A program made the position numbers and the translations under genes. The notes below the pieces were generated by a model that saw only the letters and a list, made by a program, of their open reading frames with translations, did no database searches and was not told where the DNA came from. Below, one piece after another: positions 15,587 to 39,470 of a DNA stretch of 64,000 nt (its first letter is position 1; each line of letters starts with the position of its first letter). Origin of the DNA: Naegleria gruberi (Eukaryota); NCBI GenBank assembly GCA_000004985.1, contig GG738856.1. One strand, written 5' to 3'.

Positions 15587-18001
15587 TTATTGTAAATCCT
15601 TCTCTTGTTCAGAGTGGAGGGCACGAATGAAATCTTCTTTCAATATTTGTGAAACATCACTAATTAGAAAATTTTCTTTCGTCCTTAGTGATACTCGTGG
15701 AGCAATTATTGAGACTCGAGTGAGAAGAAATAAATTCAAACGTTCAATAACTTGCTCGACAGTGTCATTCTGTGATATGTCAATTAAAACAGAAACACGA
15801 GAACCTTCCAATTTGATTTTGATTGTATGAATTTGAATTTTCTCTGTGGAAACCTTGACTGGTGTTTGATGCTGCATAGGTGGTGAATCGTTATAATATA
15901 TCAAAGTCATCTCTAGAGGAGAAAAGTTGTCAGGATAGAGAGGTCTTAACTCAATAGGAAATTCAGGAGTTTTCATTTGGTTATTAAAAACTTGTCTAAT
16001 TCTGAAATATTCTTCATTGGCTTCACTTGCATATTTGTTCTGATTACATTTTAGAAAGTAAGAAATTCGCAGTTCGTGCGCAGGTTCAAAATTTGGTTCA
16101 CTTTGCAATACTCTATCAATGTAACCAAGTACCTTTTCAGTGTGTTTCAACTTTGCATGAATGGAAGCTATGAATATTAAAATTGTAGAATTATTGGAAT
16201 AGTTTTTCAATAATTGCTCAGCATACGAAAGACCATTCTCATATTCATTGAAAATAACTGATAATTGAGAGGCAATCATACTCAAAACATCTGATTCCTC
16301 AAAATGGTCCAGCATTTGCTTGAAAATTTTCTTGGCTTTTTCAATCTCTCCAATTTCAGCATAGTACTGAACTAAATAAACATAGATTACCAAGCAATTG
16401 GGTTCCAATTCTCTTGCTTTTAGAAAATCTGGGAATGCTTTAAGCTTTTCTTCTTTTGTTTTACCAACTTGATAAATAATTATTCCTCTTTTCAAGTAAT
16501 AATGAGCTAAATCATCTAAACTGTTCCCATATTTTTCCAATATTTTAGTGTATTCAGCAATAAGGATGAATGTTGAGCCCATTTGCTCCAAAATACCCAA
16601 TTTGGCATTAATGACAGGAATGGAGAAATGTGATTTCAAGGAATTATCCAAACATTGTAGAGCTTGCTTAGTGTTACCCTTGTAGAGATGTAAGAATCCC
16701 TTCAATTGCTCCAACACATGACCACTGTTCGGATCTTGGTGTGTATTGAATTTTCTTGAGAGAAATTCCAAAGACTCAAGCAGTGTTAATGCCTTGGAGA
16801 TGTTTGGTAACTTTCCTCCATAAACTCTCTCCCAAACATGTATATCATCTCTTGATAAAAACATGGCCAAAAGCAAGCCAACACAGTATTTGATTCTAAT
16901 TTCAACAGCATCATCAATAGATAATTTCATATAATATTTGTCAAGTATTTCTATTGAATCTTCAATACTATTGGCATTCAAATGAGAAAGTATTCTATTC
17001 ATTTCTAAAACTCCTGTAAATTCTCTATCACCTATTATTTGGAGATTGTTGCATATGATTAATCTAAGATTATTAATGGTTAATATTTCCATTGCATTCA
17101 ACGATGATAATCTCTCCTTCTTATCATATGTTAGAAAGGATAATAATAGTAGCTCAAAGAATTGGTCAACCTCCCTCGTAGAGATTTCATTGATGAATTT
17201 TGCTTGAAACACTTCACTCCATGTATTCTCAATGGTTGCTTGTGTATTTTCGAGTTTTAAATTTAGAAATCGAAAATCACATTCATCTACAATATCCTTA
17301 AAACTAATTGTTGACTCGGGGAAGAGTATTTTGAAAAGTACAACACCCATACTCCAGCAATCGACTTTGTAATCATAGAGTCTATGTTTAATTGATTCAG
17401 GTGGTAAATATTCAAATGTTCCCCTATGTGTTTTCTTGGTGTTTTCAGTTTGTAAGGTTTCTCCAAAATCAGCCAATGCAATCTCAATAAATGTTTCATT
17501 TTCTTCATCAAATGATTTGACAAGAATGTTTGAAAGTTTGATATCACAATGAACAAGATTATGTTTGTGTGAAATATTGACAGCAATACATAATTGTGTC
17601 ATGATTTGACCAATTAGAAAATCAGTCAATCTCTTTCCTCTTGATGTGAAATATCTTTCAATAAATGTTTCCAAATCTCCATACTTGTAAAATGGCATTA
17701 CAATCCCAATATTGGAATGATGATTAATGTATTCCAAACTCTCTACCAAATATTCACATACAATACTCTTTCTCAAATTAAATATCTTCAATTCCTTTTC
17801 AATAATGAATTCTCTTTCCTCTTCTTCTAATAAATTAATAATTTTCAATGCAATTTCATGGTTTGAACAACGATCAAAGCATCGATATACAACTCCGTAA
17901 CCTCCTTCTCCAATAAACAGCGGATTCAAAAACCTGTCACAAAAAGAAGAAGGGAATGCATAAGGTTGACGTGACATTTTTTTGTAATGTGACACTGTCA
18001 T
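15587..18001 (-). CDS. Ser/Thr protein kinase (non-RD, HCD catalytic loop) fused to TPR/Sel1-like repeats and a C-terminal beta-grasp-like segment.
   Basis: An 804 aa ORF. Kinase motifs are GEGGYGVVY, the Lys in EIALKII, HCDIKLSNILV, DFGET and LPPE. The repeats are helical TPR-like units (e.g. YYAEIGEIEKAKKIFKQMLD). The C-terminal segment is KIKLEGSRVSVLIDISQNDTVEQVIERLN. Confidence 0.75.
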   Translation of the reverse strand: MTVSHYKKMSRQPYAFPSSFCDRFLNPLFIGEGGYGVVYRCFDRCSNHEIALKIINLLEEEEREFIIEKELKIFNLRKSIVCEYLVESLEYINHHSNIGIVMPFYKYGDLETFIERYFTSRGKRLTDFLIGQIMTQLCIAVNISHKHNLVHCDIKLSNILVKSFDEENETFIEIALADFGETLQTENTKKTHRGTFEYLPPESIKHRLYDYKVDCWSMGVVLFKILFPESTISFKDIVDECDFRFLNLKLENTQATIENTWSEVFQAKFINEISTREVDQFFELLLLSFLTYDKKERLSSLNAMEILTINNLRLIICNNLQIIGDREFTGVLEMNRILSHLNANSIEDSIEILDKYYMKLSIDDAVEIRIKYCVGLLLAMFLSRDDIHVWERVYGGKLPNISKALTLLESLEFLSRKFNTHQDPNSGHVLEQLKGFLHLYKGNTKQALQCLDNSLKSHFSIPVINAKLGILEQMGSTFILIAEYTKILEKYGNSLDDLAHYYLKRGIIIYQVGKTKEEKLKAFPDFLKARELEPNCLVIYVYLVQYYAEIGEIEKAKKIFKQMLDHFEESDVLSMIASQLSVIFNEYENGLSYAEQLLKNYSNNSTILIFIASIHAKLKHTEKVLGYIDRVLQSEPNFEPAHELRISYFLKCNQNKYASEANEEYFRIRQVFNNQMKTPEFPIELRPLYPDNFSPLEMTLIYYNDSPPMQHQTPVKVSTEKIQIHTIKIKLEGSRVSVLIDISQNDTVEQVIERLNLFLLTRVSIIAPRVSLRTKENFLISDVSQILKEDFIRALHSEQEKDLQ
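17456..17710. repeat. Arm A of a roughly 255-bp near-identical inverted repeat, lying in the kinase core of the minus-strand kinase gene.
   Basis: By eye, the reverse complement of this segment matches 18321..18575 at about 97% identity. The flanking sequence of the two genes has diverged. Confidence 0.7.
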
Positions 18002-18032
18002 TCTGAAAAAGAATCCAAAAAAATCTGGTCAA

Positions 18033-20519
18033 ATGATCAGTCAAACTCAACTTCCCTCATGTTTTGGCAGTCGTTTTTCCAATCCTACACCAGTTGGAAA
18101 AGGAGCATATGGCACCACCTACTCATGTATTGATACACAAAATGATGATCAACAAATAATTGCTTTAAAAGTGATGCAACCAAGTGAAGGGACTGGTGAT
18201 ATTGCACTTGTAGAGAGAGAAGAAGAAATTTTCACAGCCATGAAGAATGTTCAGTGTGAATATATTGCCAAGAGTATGGAATTTCTAAATTATTTCGAAA
18301 GTGATGGTAGTGGTGGTTACATTGGAATTGTAATGCCATTTTACAAGTTTGGAGATTTGGAAACATTTATTGAAAGATATTTCACATCAAGAGGAAAGAG
18401 ATTGACTGATTTTCTAATTGGTCAAATCATGACACAATTATGTATTGCTGTCAATTTATCACACAAACATAATCTTGTTCATTGTGATATCAAACTTTCA
18501 AACATTCTTGTCAAATCATTTGATGAAGAAAATGAAACATTTATTGAGATTGCATTGGCTGACTTTGGAGAAACCTTTCGAACTGATCACACAACCAATA
18601 CAGATAAAAAGGGAACAGATGACTACTTACCACCAGAGGCCTTTGATGGCAAGTACGGATTCAAGATTGATTGCTGTAGTATGGGTGTTGTCCTTTTCAA
18701 ATTGCTTTGTCCACCAACTGATGTATCTATTAGAAACTATTTGGGAGAATGTCAAACTAAATACAAACACAAACAGCGTAACATTTTCTTTAGCCATTAT
18801 TGGTCAAAGAAGTTGGCGAAATACATGTCTGGTATTGAATATCTCAAAGATCAACCATTACTACTTTCAATGGTGAATGGATTTCTAACTTACGACAAGG
18901 AAAGTAGACTCACCATATTGAATGCTCTCGATCTATGTTGCATGATTATTATGATGCACATACATGGACAGAATAATAGTGTAAACTTAGACAATTTGGA
19001 GAATCCTTCACCTGTTTTGATACTATATGATCAATTATCATTGATTTCAGATTTCAATAATGGTTCAATGGAATTGTTATCCAAATATTACAATGAAACG
19101 AAGCAAGGAAATAGTTTAGGTATTGCATACATGGTAGGATTAATCTTTTGTAGCAGTCTATTGAAAAGAGATTTCAGAATTTGGGAATTTCAATTTAATT
19201 TACAAACACCCATTACCGATACAGCAACATTGGACAAAATGATACAAGATCTTGATCAACTATCACTGAAAATTAAGACCAATGAGCCATACTTGGGCTT
19301 TATATTTGAACAATTACATGCCATTTCACTAATGAACAAGAAAATGCCTGAAAAATCTTTACAAAGATTGGAAAACTCTACAAATTCATTCTTCACATTG
19401 GCATGCCAAAAAAAAAAGTTACTACTTGTAGAATTATTGAATGGAATGACTTATTCGTTGGTAGATGAATATTCCAAGCTAATCAAACTTTATGGTGACA
19501 AGAGTATGCTCTCTGGATACTTTTATTACAAAAGGGGTGTAATGTTATTCACCCTTTCTAATGATCATCAAAATGGTATAGCTGACTTGATACATGCAAG
19601 GAATTTATCACCAAATAGTTTGGGATTATATGCAATTATGGTAAACTGCTTTTTAACTATTGGCAGTATTGAAAATGCAAAACAAGTGTTTGAGCAAATG
19701 TTGTTATTGTCTGAGCACTTTGAGATTAATAGGTTAAACTTTATTGCAATGTTTTTATCCAATTGTTTAGGTTATTTGGATAAAGCATTGGAATATGGTG
19801 AAAAACTTACTAGTCAAGAACTGTATAGCAAGGACCCTGTATTACTTCTCTTTTTATCCAGAATCTGTAGTAATAGAGGCGATAGCTCAATGGAATTGGG
19901 TTATATAGAAACGGCATTGGATATAGATCCACATTGTTATCAAGCTCACCAAATGAAAATCCTATTTTATAGAGCAGCTTTGGATTTCACAGCAGAAAAA
20001 GAAGCTTTGCTCAAGTATACAGCTCTGAAAAGGCAAAACCTTTTGCATACCTCTGAATTTCCCATTGAACTTTTACCACTATTACCAGATGGCTCACCTC
20101 TTCCAATATTATTACTAAATGAACCTGAAAAGGATGTTACAAGAATTAAGGAAATTACTTTTAAGGAAGCTGAGAAGACTGTTCAACAATTTGAAACCAT
20201 TCAACCATCACTAATGCAAGAACCTACCACAAATGATTCAATTCTTTCACCAGAAATCATCATGCAAATCAAAGTGAAATTCAAAGGGAAAAACAATGCT
20301 GTTTTCATTGATATTTTGAAAACAGATACAGACATTCGTCAAGTATTAGATCGCTTGAATAAGATTGGAAACGAAAAGAGTACAGCATATGTTAATAGAG
20401 TGGCATTTTCAATAGTGAAAGACGATGATTGTATTTTAATTACATCAATTCATCAATTATCTAAATATGATGAAGTAGTGGCTCTCACAAGTGATGAAGA
20501 AAAAGAGTTTTGGGCGTAA
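18033..20519 (+). CDS. Ser/Thr protein kinase with TPR/Sel1-like repeats. It is a paralog of the divergently transcribed gene at 15587..18001.
   Basis: An 828 aa ORF. Motifs are GKGAYGTTY, IIALKVM, HCDIKLSNILV, DFGET and LPPE. About 85 aa of the kinase core are nearly identical to the neighbouring gene. Confidence 0.75.
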   Translation: MISQTQLPSCFGSRFSNPTPVGKGAYGTTYSCIDTQNDDQQIIALKVMQPSEGTGDIALVEREEEIFTAMKNVQCEYIAKSMEFLNYFESDGSGGYIGIVMPFYKFGDLETFIERYFTSRGKRLTDFLIGQIMTQLCIAVNLSHKHNLVHCDIKLSNILVKSFDEENETFIEIALADFGETFRTDHTTNTDKKGTDDYLPPEAFDGKYGFKIDCCSMGVVLFKLLCPPTDVSIRNYLGECQTKYKHKQRNIFFSHYWSKKLAKYMSGIEYLKDQPLLLSMVNGFLTYDKESRLTILNALDLCCMIIMMHIHGQNNSVNLDNLENPSPVLILYDQLSLISDFNNGSMELLSKYYNETKQGNSLGIAYMVGLIFCSSLLKRDFRIWEFQFNLQTPITDTATLDKMIQDLDQLSLKIKTNEPYLGFIFEQLHAISLMNKKMPEKSLQRLENSTNSFFTLACQKKKLLLVELLNGMTYSLVDEYSKLIKLYGDKSMLSGYFYYKRGVMLFTLSNDHQNGIADLIHARNLSPNSLGLYAIMVNCFLTIGSIENAKQVFEQMLLLSEHFEINRLNFIAMFLSNCLGYLDKALEYGEKLTSQELYSKDPVLLLFLSRICSNRGDSSMELGYIETALDIDPHCYQAHQMKILFYRAALDFTAEKEALLKYTALKRQNLLHTSEFPIELLPLLPDGSPLPILLLNEPEKDVTRIKEITFKEAEKTVQQFETIQPSLMQEPTTNDSILSPEIIMQIKVKFKGKNNAVFIDILKTDTDIRQVLDRLNKIGNEKSTAYVNRVAFSIVKDDDCILITSIHQLSKYDEVVALTSDEEKEFWA
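18321..18575. repeat. Arm B of the inverted repeat, in the kinase core of the plus-strand kinase gene.
   Basis: See arm A. The shared segment encodes IGIVMPFYK(Y/F)GDLETFIERYFTSRGKRLTDFLIGQIMTQLCIAVN(I/L)SHKHNLVHCDIKLSNILVKSFDEENETFIEIALADFGET. Confidence 0.7.
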
Positions 20520-34838: not shown

Positions 34839-35603
34839 ATGTACTTTACTAAACCTGAAGATTATGGCTTACTCGAGAGTGGTCCAACTATGAACTATTG
34901 GATTTGGGTACCAACATTCCTTACTATTGCCTCCATGATGATCTCTGTCATTTCACAATATTTCTCCTATTTGTGGCCTGCTGTAGAATATAAGAAACAA
35001 TTCAAGAATAAGACAACTCACTATGTGTTCCTTTCATATGCTGTTAACCATACACTTTCTGCTATACTGACCACATTCACAATTGCCTATGCTAGATACT
35101 ATGGTACTTGTTATGAATCTAACATTTTTGAGATGGGTGTTCTCGAGTTGATCAAGTATATCCTTACTGTGATATTATGTGCTGTTCAACAGGTGGTCAT
35201 CTATGACTTTTTAATTTACCTTTTCCACAGAAGTTGTCATGTTAATAAGTGGATGTATATTCATATTCACAAATGGCATCACGAGAATAATACTCCACGA
35301 GGAATCTGTGATGGAATTTATGGTGATGCCTTTGAGGGAACTTTGGTGGCTTACTTTGCTGTTGGTCAAATGATGTTTTTCTCATTGCCAGTCAGTTCAA
35401 TTTGTCTCTTCTTATTGTATATTAGTTTCTTTGTCCAATTGAATCACAGTGGAAGAAAGGTTAAGATTCCATATTTCTATACTTTCAAATCCCATGCCAT
35501 TCACCATCGTCATTTCAAATATAATTTCTCTGAACACATTCCTTTGTGGGATTATTTGTTTGGAACATTGAAGTTGGACGAAATCAGTGACAATCAATTC
35601 TAA
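34839..35603 (+). CDS. Fatty acid hydroxylase / sterol desaturase superfamily protein with three His boxes. Copy 1 of a tandem pair.
   Basis: A 254 aa ORF with 4 predicted TM helices. His boxes are HRSCH (HX3H), HKWHH (HX2HH) and HAIHHRH (HX2HH). Confidence 0.75.
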   Translation: MYFTKPEDYGLLESGPTMNYWIWVPTFLTIASMMISVISQYFSYLWPAVEYKKQFKNKTTHYVFLSYAVNHTLSAILTTFTIAYARYYGTCYESNIFEMGVLELIKYILTVILCAVQQVVIYDFLIYLFHRSCHVNKWMYIHIHKWHHENNTPRGICDGIYGDAFEGTLVAYFAVGQMMFFSLPVSSICLFLLYISFFVQLNHSGRKVKIPYFYTFKSHAIHHRHFKYNFSEHIPLWDYLFGTLKLDEISDNQF

Positions 35604-36393: not shown

Positions 36394-37158
36394 ATGTACT
36401 TTACGAAACCTGAAGATTATGGCTTGTTAGAAAGTGGTCCAACTATGAACTATTGGATTTGGGTACCAACAGTGCTCTTCCTGGCTTCCATGGCTGTTTC
36501 CGTTCTTTCACAATGGTTTTCCTATTTGTGGCCTGCTGTAGAATATAAGAAACAATTCAAGAATAAGACAACTCATTACGTTCTCCTTTCATATGCTGTG
36601 AATCACTTCTTGAGCGCTCTGCTGACAACTTTTACAATTGCCTATGCTAGATACTATGGTTCTTGTTATGAATCCAATATATTCGAAATGAGTTTCTTGG
36701 AAATGTCCAAGTACATTATCACAGTTCTGTGGTGTGTTGCCCAGCAGGTACTTATCTATGACTTTTTAATCTATGTCTTCCATAGAAGTTGCCACGTTAA
36801 TAAGTGGATGTATATTCATATTCACAAGTGGCATCACGAGAATAATACACCAAGAGGAATCTGTGATGGAATTTATGGTGATGCCTTTGAGGGAACTTTG
36901 GTGGCTTACTTTGCTGTTGGTCAAATGATGTTCTTCTCATTGCCAGTCAGTTCAATTTGTCTCTTCTTATTGTATATTAGTTTCTTTGTTCAATTGAATC
37001 ACAGTGGAAGAAAGGTTAAGATTCCATATTTCTACTCGTTCAAGGCACACGCTGTCCATCATCGTCATTTCAAATATAATTTCTCTGAACACATTCCTTT
37101 GTGGGATTATTTGTTTGGTACCTTAAGATTGAGTGAAATCAGTGATGACCAATTCTAA
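36394..37158 (+). CDS. Fatty acid hydroxylase / sterol desaturase superfamily protein. Copy 2, a tandem paralog.
   Basis: A 254 aa ORF about 85% identical to copy 1 at protein level. The His boxes are the same. The 5' leaders are also similar (..aactaatct..aaatgtacttta..). Confidence 0.75.
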   Translation: MYFTKPEDYGLLESGPTMNYWIWVPTVLFLASMAVSVLSQWFSYLWPAVEYKKQFKNKTTHYVLLSYAVNHFLSALLTTFTIAYARYYGSCYESNIFEMSFLEMSKYIITVLWCVAQQVLIYDFLIYVFHRSCHVNKWMYIHIHKWHHENNTPRGICDGIYGDAFEGTLVAYFAVGQMMFFSLPVSSICLFLLYISFFVQLNHSGRKVKIPYFYSFKAHAVHHRHFKYNFSEHIPLWDYLFGTLRLSEISDDQF

Positions 37159-37304: not shown

Positions 37305-39470
37305 TTACAATTCTTCAAAGCCAGCAAGTTGATTTGAGACAACTCTACTGACAGTGTCAGTGATACCTTCACCTCCAGAAACCAATTCTCTGATACCGCT
37401 ACTTTGTGCCCATTGATCTCCTAATCTATTGATATTTTCACTTGATTGTTCCAAAAGATGATTCAATCTTTGCAATCCATCAACCATGTAATTTTGCAAC
37501 ATGTCTTGTAATTGATCCTTAAGTCTTCTTCTAACATTATTCTGAATGTAACCAGATAAAACTCTCAACAGAATTTCGTGATGTTCTGCATGAGTGAATT
37601 TCAATTTCAAGTCATCAATATCGACAGTGATAGAGTTGTATTTGAACCATTCAGTATCACCAAGTTCATTAGTGGATGTATCAACATTAATCTTCAAGTG
37701 AATCATAACACCATCATCTCCAGTATCAATATTCAATAAACCTTCATCAGAGAGTTGTGGGAAAGAGAATCTCTTGAACCAAAATTGAACATCCTTAAAG
37801 TGGAATACTATTCCACTCAAGTGCAATACAAGGGTTGATTGAGTTCCTTGGAGACTATCAGCAAGCTTATCTTCACTATAATCAATGTCTGTAACAGAGT
37901 GACCAGACATTTTAACATGTGATGGTAACAAGTCAGATGCATTCATTCTCAAGCCCTTCAGTTCATATTCAACATTCTCATCAACATAATGAATATCCAA
38001 ATCTGTAAAAGATGATACAGTTTCCTTAATCATAGACACCATCATAACCTTCAATTCATTCAGANNNNNNNNNNNNNNNNNNNNNNNNNNNNNNNNNNNN
38101 NNNNNNNNNNNNNNNNNNNNNNNNNNNNNNNNNNNNNNNNNNNNNNNNNNNNNNNNNNNNNNNNNNNNNNNNNNNNNNNNNNNNNNNNNNNNNNNNNNNN
38201 NNNNNNNNNNNNNNNNNNNNNNNNNNNNNNNNAGTATCTACGAGTGTCCTTCTCAACTTGATCTAACAATTTGGAAAGCTCCTTGTCATTGCTGAATGCC
38301 TTATAGATATCTTGCAATGATTGTTCCATATCCTTGATGATCTTTTCATTACCAACCCATTGGATTAACAACTTTTCACCATTCTCTTTCATATTGATAA
38401 AGTACTTGTCATTTTGCATTTCCTTAACCAAATCGTTAACGTTACTCTCAATGTTATCATTGAAAATGAACTTGAGTTGATCGAACATGTTGGAGAATCC
38501 CAAAACTGCCTTTCTGTAAGATCTATTTGAAGAGAATTCCTTGATAAGTTCACTAAATCTATCATAAATTTGGTCTTCTAACTTTTCTTGCTTTAATTCA
38601 GCAGATTTGACATCTGACTTGGTAGGTTCTACTGATGCAGCAACAACCTTAGTCTTTTGCTTCTTGGAAGAAGATTCAACACTGGATGATTCTAAGAATG
38701 GCTTTTCCCAATCACTCTTATTCTTTGGAGTATCTTCAGTAACATCCATTTGATCCTTAACCTTCTCTTTCAACTCATCATCATCATCATCAAGATTATT
38801 GACAATTCTTTGAATGGCAGCTCTTGAGACCTTCGTTAGCTTGTACATGAATGTTAGTGAGGCTCTTATTTGACAATACTCTCAAATAGTTCAATGTATC
38901 AACCATTAAAAGTCTAAATGAGTTGGATCTAAACAGTTCAAAAATAAAATTGGAAAAGTTCTGAACTGATTCATAGAAAGACTTGGTTTCTTGATTGAGT
39001 TGGTCATTCACATCACTTGTGGTATCCTTAACTACATGTACAACTTTATCAGAGTACTTGTCAATGAACATGTTGGTATTGTAAATGAATTGTTGCAATA
39101 CCTGATCCTTATTCTTCTCTTCAATTAATTGTTTAACAATGTCTAACAGGTGAATAGCACGTTCTTGAATATTTTGACTTGATGTGACATATTGTGATGA
39201 TTTGTCAACAATATCTTTCACCTGTTCAACACCACTCAAAAGTTGTTCATTAGAAGGAATTTCACCCTTGGTAAGAGACTTTAATCCTTCAATGGTTTGA
39301 TCAATTGCCTTATTGTCAACTGTGACATTAACAATATTCTCTTGGATGTTTTCCTTTACCTCTTGAACAGTATCAGCAATTTTAGGAGTAATAGTTGTAG
39401 ATGAAGATGGATTCTTGATTTCTACCATTTCCAATGTTTTGTTGTTTTTTAATTGTTTTAATTTCTTCAC
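37305..39470 (-). CDS. Hypothetical multi-exon gene interrupted by the assembly gap. It joins three track ORFs into one mostly helical / coiled-coil protein with a C-terminal beta-rich domain.
   Basis: ORFs 38796..39470, 38060..38848 and 37305..38054 are colinear on the minus strand. The first two overlap in different frames. A 40-nt GTATTG..ACAAG segment near 38850..38890 would rejoin them as a short intron. The N-run 38065..38232 sits between the second and third. Confidence 0.35.
38065..38232. other. Assembly gap, a run of N.
   Basis: 168 consecutive N characters in the sequence. Confidence 0.99.

What the first reader, a model, noticed from the sequence alone, without database searches (positions are those of the whole stretch)
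15587..20519. Head-to-head kinase-TPR paralogs sharing a roughly 255-bp near-identical inverted repeat confined to the catalytic core
Two divergently transcribed genes encode proteins with the same architecture: an N-terminal non-RD Ser/Thr kinase, then TPR/Sel1-like repeats, then a C-terminal beta-grasp-like segment. Their annotated start codons are only about 31 bp apart, so the promoters and 5' regions must overlap. Overall the proteins are diverged. However, the segment encoding IGIVMPFYK..HCDIKLSNILV..ALADFGET is about 97% identical at nucleotide level in inverted orientation (17456..17710 versus 18321..18575). That pattern suggests recent gene conversion, or selection keeping the two catalytic cores identical, and it forms a potentially recombinogenic inverted repeat. 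Massive expansion of such kinase-repeat proteins is a known feature of arbuscular mycorrhizal fungal genomes.
Basis: seen in the sequence. Interest (0 to 1): 0.65.

Follow-up and report, generated by a model that had tools for sequence, protein, structure and literature searches.

The report
Gene-conversion patch in paired Naegleria kinases
Two old, back-to-back duplicate kinase genes of the amoeba Naegleria gruberi share one 257-base stretch that is almost identical because one copy was recently pasted over the other (gene conversion); it is a clean example of a well-known process, not a new kind of element.

Summary
Arms 17454-17710 (-) and 18321-18577 (+) are 257 nt with 5 mismatches (98%), inside two divergent ORFs whose ATGs lie 31 bp apart. 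The rest of the two genes is saturated: 55% nt identity overall (50% outside the tract), pS 0.70.

The excess identity is at silent sites. Tract dS is 0.05. Conserved residues use the same codon in 79/81 cases inside the tract and 104/228 outside (P=1e-19). Protein-level selection alone therefore cannot explain it. Interlocus gene conversion between adjacent inverted paralogs is the best explanation.

The window is Naegleria gruberi, not a mycorrhizal fungus. The family is tiny: these two genes plus one single-copy gene each in N. fowleri and N. lovaniensis. The duplication is therefore old and lineage-specific.

The proposed architecture is supported: a non-RD kinase (HCD), a TPR superhelix and a C-terminal ubiquitin-like beta-grasp domain.

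A second paralog pair in the same window, tandem fatty-acid hydroxylases, has a similar ~250-nt high-identity patch. Such tracts therefore seem routine in this genome.

This is a new instance of a known phenomenon, of modest interest. Open points are donor polarity, whether the patch is a long-maintained island or a single event, and how two genes are transcribed from a 31-bp spacer.

The parts
15587..18001 (-). Gene A: 804-aa kinase-TPR-UBL protein, identical to N. gruberi XP_002679852.1 / NAEGRDRAFT_47422
   Evidence: ORF; exact database match; Pkinase E 4.7e-40 at aa 30-304
18033..20519 (+). Gene B: 828-aa paralog. The GenBank model (781 aa, 'serine/threonine protein kinase') starts at Met48 = window 18174 and is probably truncated at the N-terminus.
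   Evidence: ORF; 781/781 identity to P0002 from residue 48; N-terminal motifs conserved in all 4 family members
18002..18032 (.). 31-bp spacer between the two divergent ATGs (TCTGAAAAAGAATCCAAAAAAATCTGGTCAA). It lies close to the symmetry centre of the ancient inverted duplication.
   Evidence: other divergent ORF pairs in the window are 269-1064 bp apart
17454..17710 (-). Conversion tract, arm in gene A (codons 98-183: hinge, alphaD-alphaE, catalytic loop HCDIKLSN, DFG)
   Evidence: 257 nt, 5 mismatches to the other arm; dS 0.049; 79/81 identical codons at conserved residues
18321..18577 (+). Conversion tract, arm in gene B (codons 97-182)
17711..18320 (.). 610-bp segment between the arms. 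It holds both 5' coding ends (N-lobe codons 1-97 of A and 1-96 of B) and the spacer. It is diverged (about 50% nt), with a 5-6 codon indel right at the 5' edge of the tract.
17090..17914 (-). Protein kinase domain of A (aa 30-304)
   Evidence: Pfam PF00069 138 bits; nearest solved kinases are CDPK, ULK3 and DCLK1, E 1e-24 to 1e-20
18090..18929 (+). Protein kinase domain of B (aa 20-299)
   Evidence: Pfam PF00069 104.8 bits
15980..16804 (-). TPR-like alpha-solenoid of A (aa about 400-674)
   Evidence: TPR_19 28.9 bits vs cutoff 25 on the isolated C-terminal part; the profile hits bona fide TPR proteins in several stretches; AF2 pLDDT mostly 63-88 with paired helices, and Foldseek hits to CTPR/OGT-TPR at E 3e-8
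15590..15832 (-). C-terminal ubiquitin-like (beta-grasp) domain of A (aa about 724-804)
20265..20516 (+). C-terminal ubiquitin-like domain of B (by alignment to A)
   Evidence: alignments

Best explanation
Genes A and B descend from an old inverted (palindrome-like) duplication in the Naegleria gruberi lineage and have since diverged to saturation. A 257-bp segment of one copy was recently copied non-reciprocally onto the other. This is interlocus gene conversion between adjacent inverted paralogs. It reset that segment to near identity, and five differences have accumulated since.

The segment encodes the kinase hinge, alphaD-alphaE, the catalytic loop and the DFG motif.

Shown: the mosaic pattern, its silent-site signature, its sharp limits and the age of the duplication.

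Inferred: the mechanism was homologous recombination, either repair of a break in one arm using the other arm 0.6 kb away or heteroduplex repair.

Also inferred: recombination needs pre-existing identity, and the flanks are only about 50% identical. The most coherent history is therefore that this segment has been homogenised repeatedly since the duplication, as a shrinking 'island' that never escaped conversion. The flanks escaped. On the 5' side the island ends at a 5-6 codon indel, and on the 3' side at the fast-evolving activation segment.

Inverted orientation allows such exchange without deleting anything. A crossover would merely invert the 610-bp spacer.
For: - Sliding codon windows: third-position identity is 0.97-1.00 across A codons 98-183 and 0.2-0.5 elsewhere.
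- Nei-Gojobori estimates: tract dS 0.049 and dN 0.017; outside, pS 0.70 (saturated) and dN 0.68.
- At conserved amino acids the same codon is used in 79/81 cases inside the tract and 104/228 outside, Fisher P 1.4e-19.
- The longest perfect run is 106 nt, against a maximum of 26 in 10,000 permutations.
- There is no third copy of the tract in the window. No other protein in 5.8 billion carries it.
- The N. lovaniensis and N. fowleri relatives are single-copy with no partner within 10 kb.
- Outside the tract A-B identity is 34%, against 28-30% to those orthologs. Inside the tract it is 96.5%, against 42-58%. The tract history therefore conflicts with the gene history.
- A second paralog pair in the same window (34839-35603 / 36394-37158) has a 251-nt patch at 97% identity in an otherwise roughly 80% identical CDS (85.5% overall including the patch), with silent-site excess (P 5e-5). 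Conversion tracts of this size therefore recur in this genome.
- Conversion between adjacent inverted paralogs is documented elsewhere (PMC3966223).
Against: - Only one genome is available, so donor and recipient cannot be assigned and no unconverted allele has been seen.
- Flanks at about 50% identity would normally block homologous recombination. A single recent event by classical HR is therefore hard to initiate unless the island was already similar. That history is inferred, not shown.
- There is no GC-biased-conversion signature: GC3 is 0.21 in the tract and 0.29 in the flanks.
- The raw reads were not inspected.
Confidence: 0.85

Rival explanations
1. A single recent replication-based template switch (quasipalindrome correction or microhomology-mediated copying across the fork between the two inverted arms) overwrote one arm, rather than recombinational gene conversion.
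For: The arms are inverted and only 610 bp apart. The flanks are too diverged (about 50%) for efficient homologous pairing. Template switching needs only microhomology. The 5' edge is abrupt and sits at an indel.
Against: From my own knowledge, documented quasipalindrome corrections are usually tens of bases, not 257. The tandem, direct-orientation hydroxylase pair in the same window shows a similar ~250-nt patch, and an inverted-repeat-specific mechanism cannot explain that. The outcome is indistinguishable from gene conversion in a single genome.
Confidence: 0.08
2. The identity is kept by purifying selection on the nucleotide sequence itself, for example an embedded RNA, regulatory element or overlapping reading frame, without any copying between the genes.
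For: Alternative-frame ORFs run through both arms (17287-17586 -, 18445-18876 +). The tract is also the most conserved part of the protein across species.
Against: - Two sequences that had diverged to saturation cannot become identical at 79/81 synonymous codons by constraint alone.
- There is no Rfam match.
- The alternative-frame ORFs start at TTG and diverge as soon as the tract ends.
- The N. fowleri and N. lovaniensis orthologs are only 42-58% identical in protein over this segment, so no extreme constraint exists.
Confidence: 0.02
3. Assembly or sequencing artefact: reads from one gene were mis-placed into the other, creating a false identical patch.
For: Only one public assembly exists. 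The locus could not be retrieved from any other assembly.
Against: - The patch is in frame and exactly collinear in both genes.
- It carries 5 private differences, including a two-base codon change (ATT vs TTA).
- At 257 bp it is shorter than a Sanger read, so single reads would span it into unique flanks (inference).
- A second pair in the window shows the same kind of mosaic.
Confidence: 0.03
4. The inverted repeat is a functional switch. Reciprocal recombination between the arms flips the 610-bp spacer, swapping promoters and N-lobes between the two kinases, and the identity is maintained for that purpose.
For: The geometry fits. The arms flank both 5' ends and the 31-bp spacer. An inversion would produce two intact chimeric ORFs, because the arms are in the same codon phase.
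Against: No evidence exists of the alternative orientation. No recombinase gene lies nearby: the neighbours are ankyrin and NHL-BTB proteins. 257 bp at 98% identity is what passive conversion leaves behind.
Confidence: 0.02

Closest known systems
Interlocus gene conversion between adjacent inverted paralogs (e.g. C. elegans hsp16 inverted modules and the inverted hsp70 pair, reviewed in PMC3966223)
   Same: Head-to-head duplicated genes a few hundred bp apart; non-reciprocal homogenisation detected as sequence identity far above that expected from the age of the duplication.
   Different: There, whole genes or modules are kept near-identical. Here only 257 bp (about 10% of each gene) is homogenised, inside paralogs that are otherwise saturated at silent sites.
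Arm-to-arm gene conversion in large palindromes (human Y-chromosome ampliconic palindromes; my own knowledge, Rozen et al. 2003)
   Same: Inverted arms with a short spacer are kept identical by intrachromosomal conversion. A crossover gives an inversion rather than a deletion.
   Different: Y palindromes are 9 kb to 1.45 Mb and identical along the whole arm. Here the ancient palindrome has decayed everywhere except one sub-genic island.
Sub-genic mosaic conversion between diverged paralogs (e.g. human RHD/RHCE in opposite orientation, CYP21A2/CYP21A1P microconversions; my own knowledge)
   Same: Short tracts of tens to hundreds of bp are transferred between neighbouring paralogs, giving patchwork genes.
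   Different: Those paralogs are more than 90% identical overall, so pairing is easy. Here the flanks are about 50% identical, which makes the persistence or initiation of conversion the unusual aspect.
Quasipalindrome correction by replication template switching (my own knowledge: Ripley 1982; Lovett laboratory work)
   Same: An imperfect inverted repeat becomes perfect by copying one arm from the other.
   Different: The known events are short (usually under 50 nt) with short spacers. It was not shown to operate here.
Kinase-repeat proteins of arbuscular mycorrhizal fungi
   Same: An N-terminal Ser/Thr kinase followed by helical repeats.
   Different: The organism is different (a heterolobosean amoeba). 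No Sel1 repeats were detected. A C-terminal ubiquitin-like domain is present. The family has 1-2 members per genome rather than hundreds.

Membership tests
Interlocus (ectopic) gene conversion tract | A contiguous segment whose identity significantly exceeds that of the rest of the paralog alignment | tested here: met
   252/257 identical against a 50% background, P about 1e-63 or lower; perfect run of 106 nt against a maximum of 26 in 10,000 permutations
Interlocus (ectopic) gene conversion tract | The excess identity extends to synonymous sites, so it is not explained by protein-level constraint | tested here: met
   Tract dS 0.049 against saturated outside; same codon at 79/81 conserved residues against 104/228 outside, P 1.4e-19
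Interlocus (ectopic) gene conversion tract | The tract's history conflicts with the history of the flanks (old duplication, young tract) | tested here: met
   Outside the tract A-B identity is 34% aa, similar to the 28-30% to N. fowleri/N. lovaniensis. Inside it is 96.5% against 42-58%.
Interlocus (ectopic) gene conversion tract | Non-reciprocal transfer with identifiable donor and recipient | not testable with these tools
   No second N. gruberi-clade genome or allele is available.
Interlocus (ectopic) gene conversion tract | No independent third source for both copies | tested here: met
   No other copy in the window. The next-best protein in the 5.8-billion database is 30% identical.
Eukaryotic protein kinase, non-RD class | Pkinase domain above the Pfam gathering score, with catalytic residues present | tested here: met
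   138 and 105 bits against a cutoff of 31.7. GxGxxG, the IALK lysine, D-x-K-x-x-N and DFG are visible in both ORFs.
Eukaryotic protein kinase, non-RD class | No arginine preceding the catalytic aspartate | tested here: met
   HCD in A, B and both orthologs
TPR repeat proteins | Sequence match to TPR models | tested here: inconclusive
   A: TPR_19 28.9 bits (cutoff 25) and TPR_14 26.1 bits (cutoff 23.5) on the isolated C-terminal part. B: no Pfam TPR hit. The A+B profile finds many genuine TPR proteins at E 1e-16 to 1e-4.
TPR repeat proteins | Superhelix of paired antiparallel helices | tested here: met
   AF2 model, aa 400-660, pLDDT mostly 63-88, regular 13-14 residue helix pairs. Foldseek top hits are consensus TPR and the OGT TPR domain, E 3e-8.
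Sel1-like repeats | Match to the Sel1 model (PF08238) | tested here: not met
   No Sel1 hit in either protein, even at E up to 10
Ubiquitin-like beta-grasp domains (RA/RBD, PB1, DCX, UBL) | Beta-beta-alpha-beta-beta grasp fold | tested here: met
Ubiquitin-like beta-grasp domains (RA/RBD, PB1, DCX, UBL) | Sequence membership of a named family | tested here: not met
   Only PI3K_rbd at E 0.008, 16.8 bits against a cutoff of 22
Mycorrhizal-fungus kinase expansions | Glomeromycotina origin and a large paralogous family | tested here: not met
   ORF A is an exact match to Naegleria gruberi XP_002679852.1. Only 4 family members exist in the databases.
Invertible DNA switch | Both orientations of the segment between the inverted repeats exist, and a dedicated recombinase is present | not testable with these tools
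   Single assembly only. The neighbouring ORFs are ankyrin and NHL-BTB proteins.

The most novel reading that the evidence does not exclude
The 257-bp patch is not a one-off accident. It is a conversion island kept homogeneous ever since an ancient palindromic duplication, because selection tolerates or favours an identical catalytic scaffold in both kinases. Meanwhile the N-lobe, activation segment, TPR and ubiquitin-like domains were free to diverge. This would be sub-genic concerted evolution persisting past silent-site saturation of the rest of the gene. A stronger variant adds occasional crossovers between the arms that flip the 610-bp spacer and swap N-lobes and promoters between the two genes.
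Probability: 0.2. Interest if true: 0.5.

Novelty: new member of a known kind. Interest (0 to 1): 0.3.

Why it matters
This is an unusually clean natural example of how small a gene-conversion island can be, with the rest of the two paralogs at silent-site saturation. Together with a second ~250-nt patch in the same 64-kb window, it indicates that homologous recombination between nearby paralogs is active in Naegleria gruberi, an organism whose sexual and recombinational biology is still inferred mostly from its gene content.

Practical consequences:
- Trees or dS estimates for this pair will be wrong unless the tract is masked.
- The public gene model of one paralog appears truncated.
- Any probe, primer or guide placed in the tract will hit both genes.

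It does not reveal a new type of genetic element.

Tried and rejected
- Looked for the locus in other assemblies to polarise the conversion. The look-up of encoding contigs has no record of either protein. A metagenome scan with the A+B alignment found only unrelated kinases at 23-26% identity.
- Looked for more family members. The word-indexed search, the exhaustive profile search with the non-kinase part and a search seeded with the N. lovaniensis protein together give only four proteins.
- Synteny with the N. lovaniensis and N. fowleri loci: none of eight window neighbours is found there.
- Embedded RNA: no Rfam hit at E up to 1.
- GC-biased conversion signature: absent.
- A possible second mini-tract (17325-17369 / 18662-18706, 45 nt, 84%) has identical codons at 8 of 9 conserved degenerate residues. 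Read off the codon table, my rough estimate is P about 0.01 before correcting for about 70 comparable windows. Silent sites between it and the main tract are at background. I did not count it as conversion.
- The 29 nt 3' of the core (17425-17453, 69% identity) are made of single-base non-synonymous differences. The stretch is too short to interpret.
- Alternative-frame ORFs through the arms: rejected as by-products of the identical sequence.
- Literature: no paper mentions NAEGRDRAFT_47422 or its accessions. Searches for the Naegleria kinome and for promoter/UTR data gave nothing on this pair.
Full report
**What is there.** The region holds two long uninterrupted ORFs on opposite strands. Gene A is 15587-18001 (-), 804 aa. 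Gene B is 18033-20519 (+), 828 aa. Their ATGs are separated by 31 bp.

The repeat finder reports an inverted repeat with arms 17425-17710 and 18321-18606: 286 nt, 95% complementary, 610 nt apart. It is the only inverted repeat of 60 nt or more in the whole 64-kb window. A base-by-base comparison puts the core at 17454-17710 against 18321-18577. That is 257 nt with five mismatches (98.1%) and perfect runs of 106 and 104 nt.

**Is it more than chance or protein constraint?** A codon-aware alignment shows 41% amino-acid and 55% nucleotide identity overall. Third-position identity is 0.2-0.5 everywhere except A codons 98-183, where it is 0.97-1.00.

- Nei-Gojobori estimates are dS 0.049 and dN 0.017 in the tract. 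Outside it, pS is 0.70 (saturated) and dN 0.68.
- Where the two proteins have the same residue, the same codon is used in 79 of 81 cases inside the tract and 104 of 228 outside (Fisher P 1.4e-19).
- The 106-nt perfect run was never approached in 10,000 permutations of the variable sites (maximum 26). 252/257 matches against the flank identity has P about 1e-63 or lower.

Selection on the protein cannot make silent sites identical, so sequence was copied between the genes.

**Limits of the tract.** The 5' limit is abrupt and abuts a 5-6 codon indel (HHSN in A against FESDGSGGY in B). The 3' limit falls just after DFGET, at the start of the activation segment. Of the five differences, two are synonymous. 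Three produce Y/F and I/L replacements.

**Where the window comes from.** ORF A is an exact match to Naegleria gruberi XP_002679852.1 (NAEGRDRAFT_47422), on a 602-kb contig. Residues 48-828 of ORF B are identical to an N. gruberi protein annotated 'serine/threonine protein kinase'.

The rest of the window fits this origin (my own knowledge of the genome). It has about 32% GC and dense, mostly intron-less ORFs. It also encodes a PAS-adenylate cyclase, ankyrin and NHL-BTB proteins, and proline dehydrogenase. The suggested link to arbuscular mycorrhizal fungi is therefore wrong.

The public model of B starts at Met48. It omits the Gly-rich loop and the VAIK lysine, which align well with A and with both orthologs. 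The 18033 ATG is the better start.

**The proteins.** Both have a Pkinase domain (E 4.7e-40 and 6.5e-30). Both carry GxGxxG, the beta3 lysine, HCDIKLSN and DFG, so they look catalytically competent and are non-RD kinases (HCD). The nearest solved kinases are CDPKs, ULK3 and DCLK1, with no clear subfamily.

- **Middle region.** It gives only marginal Pfam TPR hits in A and none in B. However, a profile of the two non-kinase parts finds hundreds of genuine TPR proteins. An AlphaFold model has confident (pLDDT mostly 63-88) regular helix pairs over aa 400-660. Its best Foldseek matches are consensus TPR and the OGT TPR superhelix.

**Family and age.** Three searches give only four members: A, B, N. 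lovaniensis XP_044549810 (981 aa) and N. fowleri FDP41_002607 (1127 aa) (one search names the N. lovaniensis protein). In those two species the gene is single-copy. It has no partner within 10 kb and different neighbours.

On ungapped columns outside the tract, A-B identity is 34%. A or B against the other species is 28-30%. N. lovaniensis against N. fowleri is 55%. Inside the tract A-B is 96.5%, against 42-58% to the orthologs. The four-taxon distances favour ((A,B),(Nl,Nf)). The simplest history is therefore an inverted duplication in the N. gruberi lineage, old enough for silent sites to saturate, followed much later by homogenisation of one 257-bp segment.

**Mechanism.** The best-supported explanation is interlocus gene conversion between adjacent inverted paralogs. 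This process is documented for head-to-head gene pairs in other organisms (PMC3966223).

The pattern is shown; the mechanism is inferred. The one puzzling aspect is that the flanks are only about 50% identical, which is far too diverged for efficient homologous pairing. Two readings remain.

1. The segment has been converted repeatedly since the duplication and simply never escaped. It would be an island that can only shrink, bounded by an indel on one side and the rapidly changing activation segment on the other.
2. A single recent event used a mechanism that needs only microhomology, such as replication template switching between inverted arms.

I favour the first. A direct-orientation paralog pair in the same window shows a similar patch. 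These are the tandem fatty-acid hydroxylase genes at 34839-35603 and 36394-37158. The patch is 251 nt with 7 mismatches, third-position identity is 0.93-0.97 against 0.37-0.77 elsewhere, the permutation P is 4e-4 and the codon test gives P 5e-5. That argues for a general recombinational process with tracts of about 250 nt, not for something specific to inverted repeats.

**Rejected or unlikely alternatives.**
- Nucleotide-level constraint from an embedded element. There is no Rfam hit. The alternative-frame ORFs diverge outside the tract. Protein identity to the orthologs is only 42-58%.
- Assembly artefact. The patch is in frame, carries five private differences, is shorter than a Sanger read, and a second example lies nearby.
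- A third donor copy. None was found.
- A purposeful invertible switch. The geometry allows it and an inversion would give intact chimeras, but there is no evidence for it.

**The 31-bp spacer.** Other divergent ORF pairs in the window are 269-1064 bp apart, although tandem genes can be as close as 39-66 bp. Either both genes have extremely short leaders and share a minimal bidirectional promoter, or each is transcribed from within the other's 5' coding region. This cannot be resolved without transcript data.

**Verdict.** The gene-conversion reading is supported. The selection-only and mycorrhizal readings are not. This is a new, tidy instance of a well-known process in a little-studied protist. 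It is useful for annotation and for thinking about how conversion islands persist, but it is not a new kind of system.

Noticed in passing
window 34839-35603 and 36394-37158 (+): Tandem fatty-acid hydroxylase paralogs (PF04116), 85.5% nt identical over exactly the CDS, with unrelated flanks. They contain a 251-nt segment (35229-35479) at 97% identity whose silent sites are also near-identical. This is probably a second gene-conversion tract of about the same size as the kinase one.
   Followed up: partly
window 18033-18173 (+): The public N. gruberi model of gene B starts at Met48 (18174). It lacks the Gly-rich loop and the VAIK lysine, which are conserved in gene A and in both orthologs. The gene model looks truncated at the N-terminus.
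   Followed up: yes
L001 10001-13183 (N. lovaniensis) and L002 10001-13384 (N. fowleri): The single-copy orthologs have Arg in place of the beta3 lysine (IALRV), a GxGxxA loop and a catalytic loop HCD[LI]SLKN. Lys and Ser are swapped relative to HCDIKLSN in N. gruberi. They may be pseudokinases or use a shifted lysine. They also carry long low-complexity inserts before the ubiquitin-like domain.
   Followed up: no
window 17287-17586 (-) and 18445-18876 (+): Alternative-frame ORFs of 99 and 143 codons run through both arms of the repeat. They share sequence only within the tract and start at TTG, so they are probably by-products of the identical DNA.
   Followed up: partly
window 15956-15961 region of gene A (aa 681-691) and the equivalent in gene B: A short motif, FPIEL-PL-PD-SP, between the TPR region and the ubiquitin-like domain is among the best-conserved non-kinase stretches across all four family members. 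It may be a linear docking motif.
   Followed up: no
window 20742-21725 (+): Five 168-nt direct repeats (63-74% identity) inside the neighbouring NHL-repeat + BTB gene (20586-22937). They correspond to the NHL beta-propeller blades.
   Followed up: no
window 26175-27453 (-) and 38060-39470 (-): Pairs of same-strand ORFs overlap by 26 and 53 bp (26175-26825/26800-27453; 38060-38848/38796-39470). These may be single genes split by a short intron or a frameshift. The three ORFs scanned had no Pfam hits; 38796-39470 was not scanned.
   Followed up: no
window 17325-17369 / 18662-18706: A 45-nt secondary inverted match (84%) encodes DC-SMGVVLFK with mostly identical codons. It may be the remnant of an older or discontinuous tract, but it is not significant after allowing for multiple windows.
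   Followed up: partly
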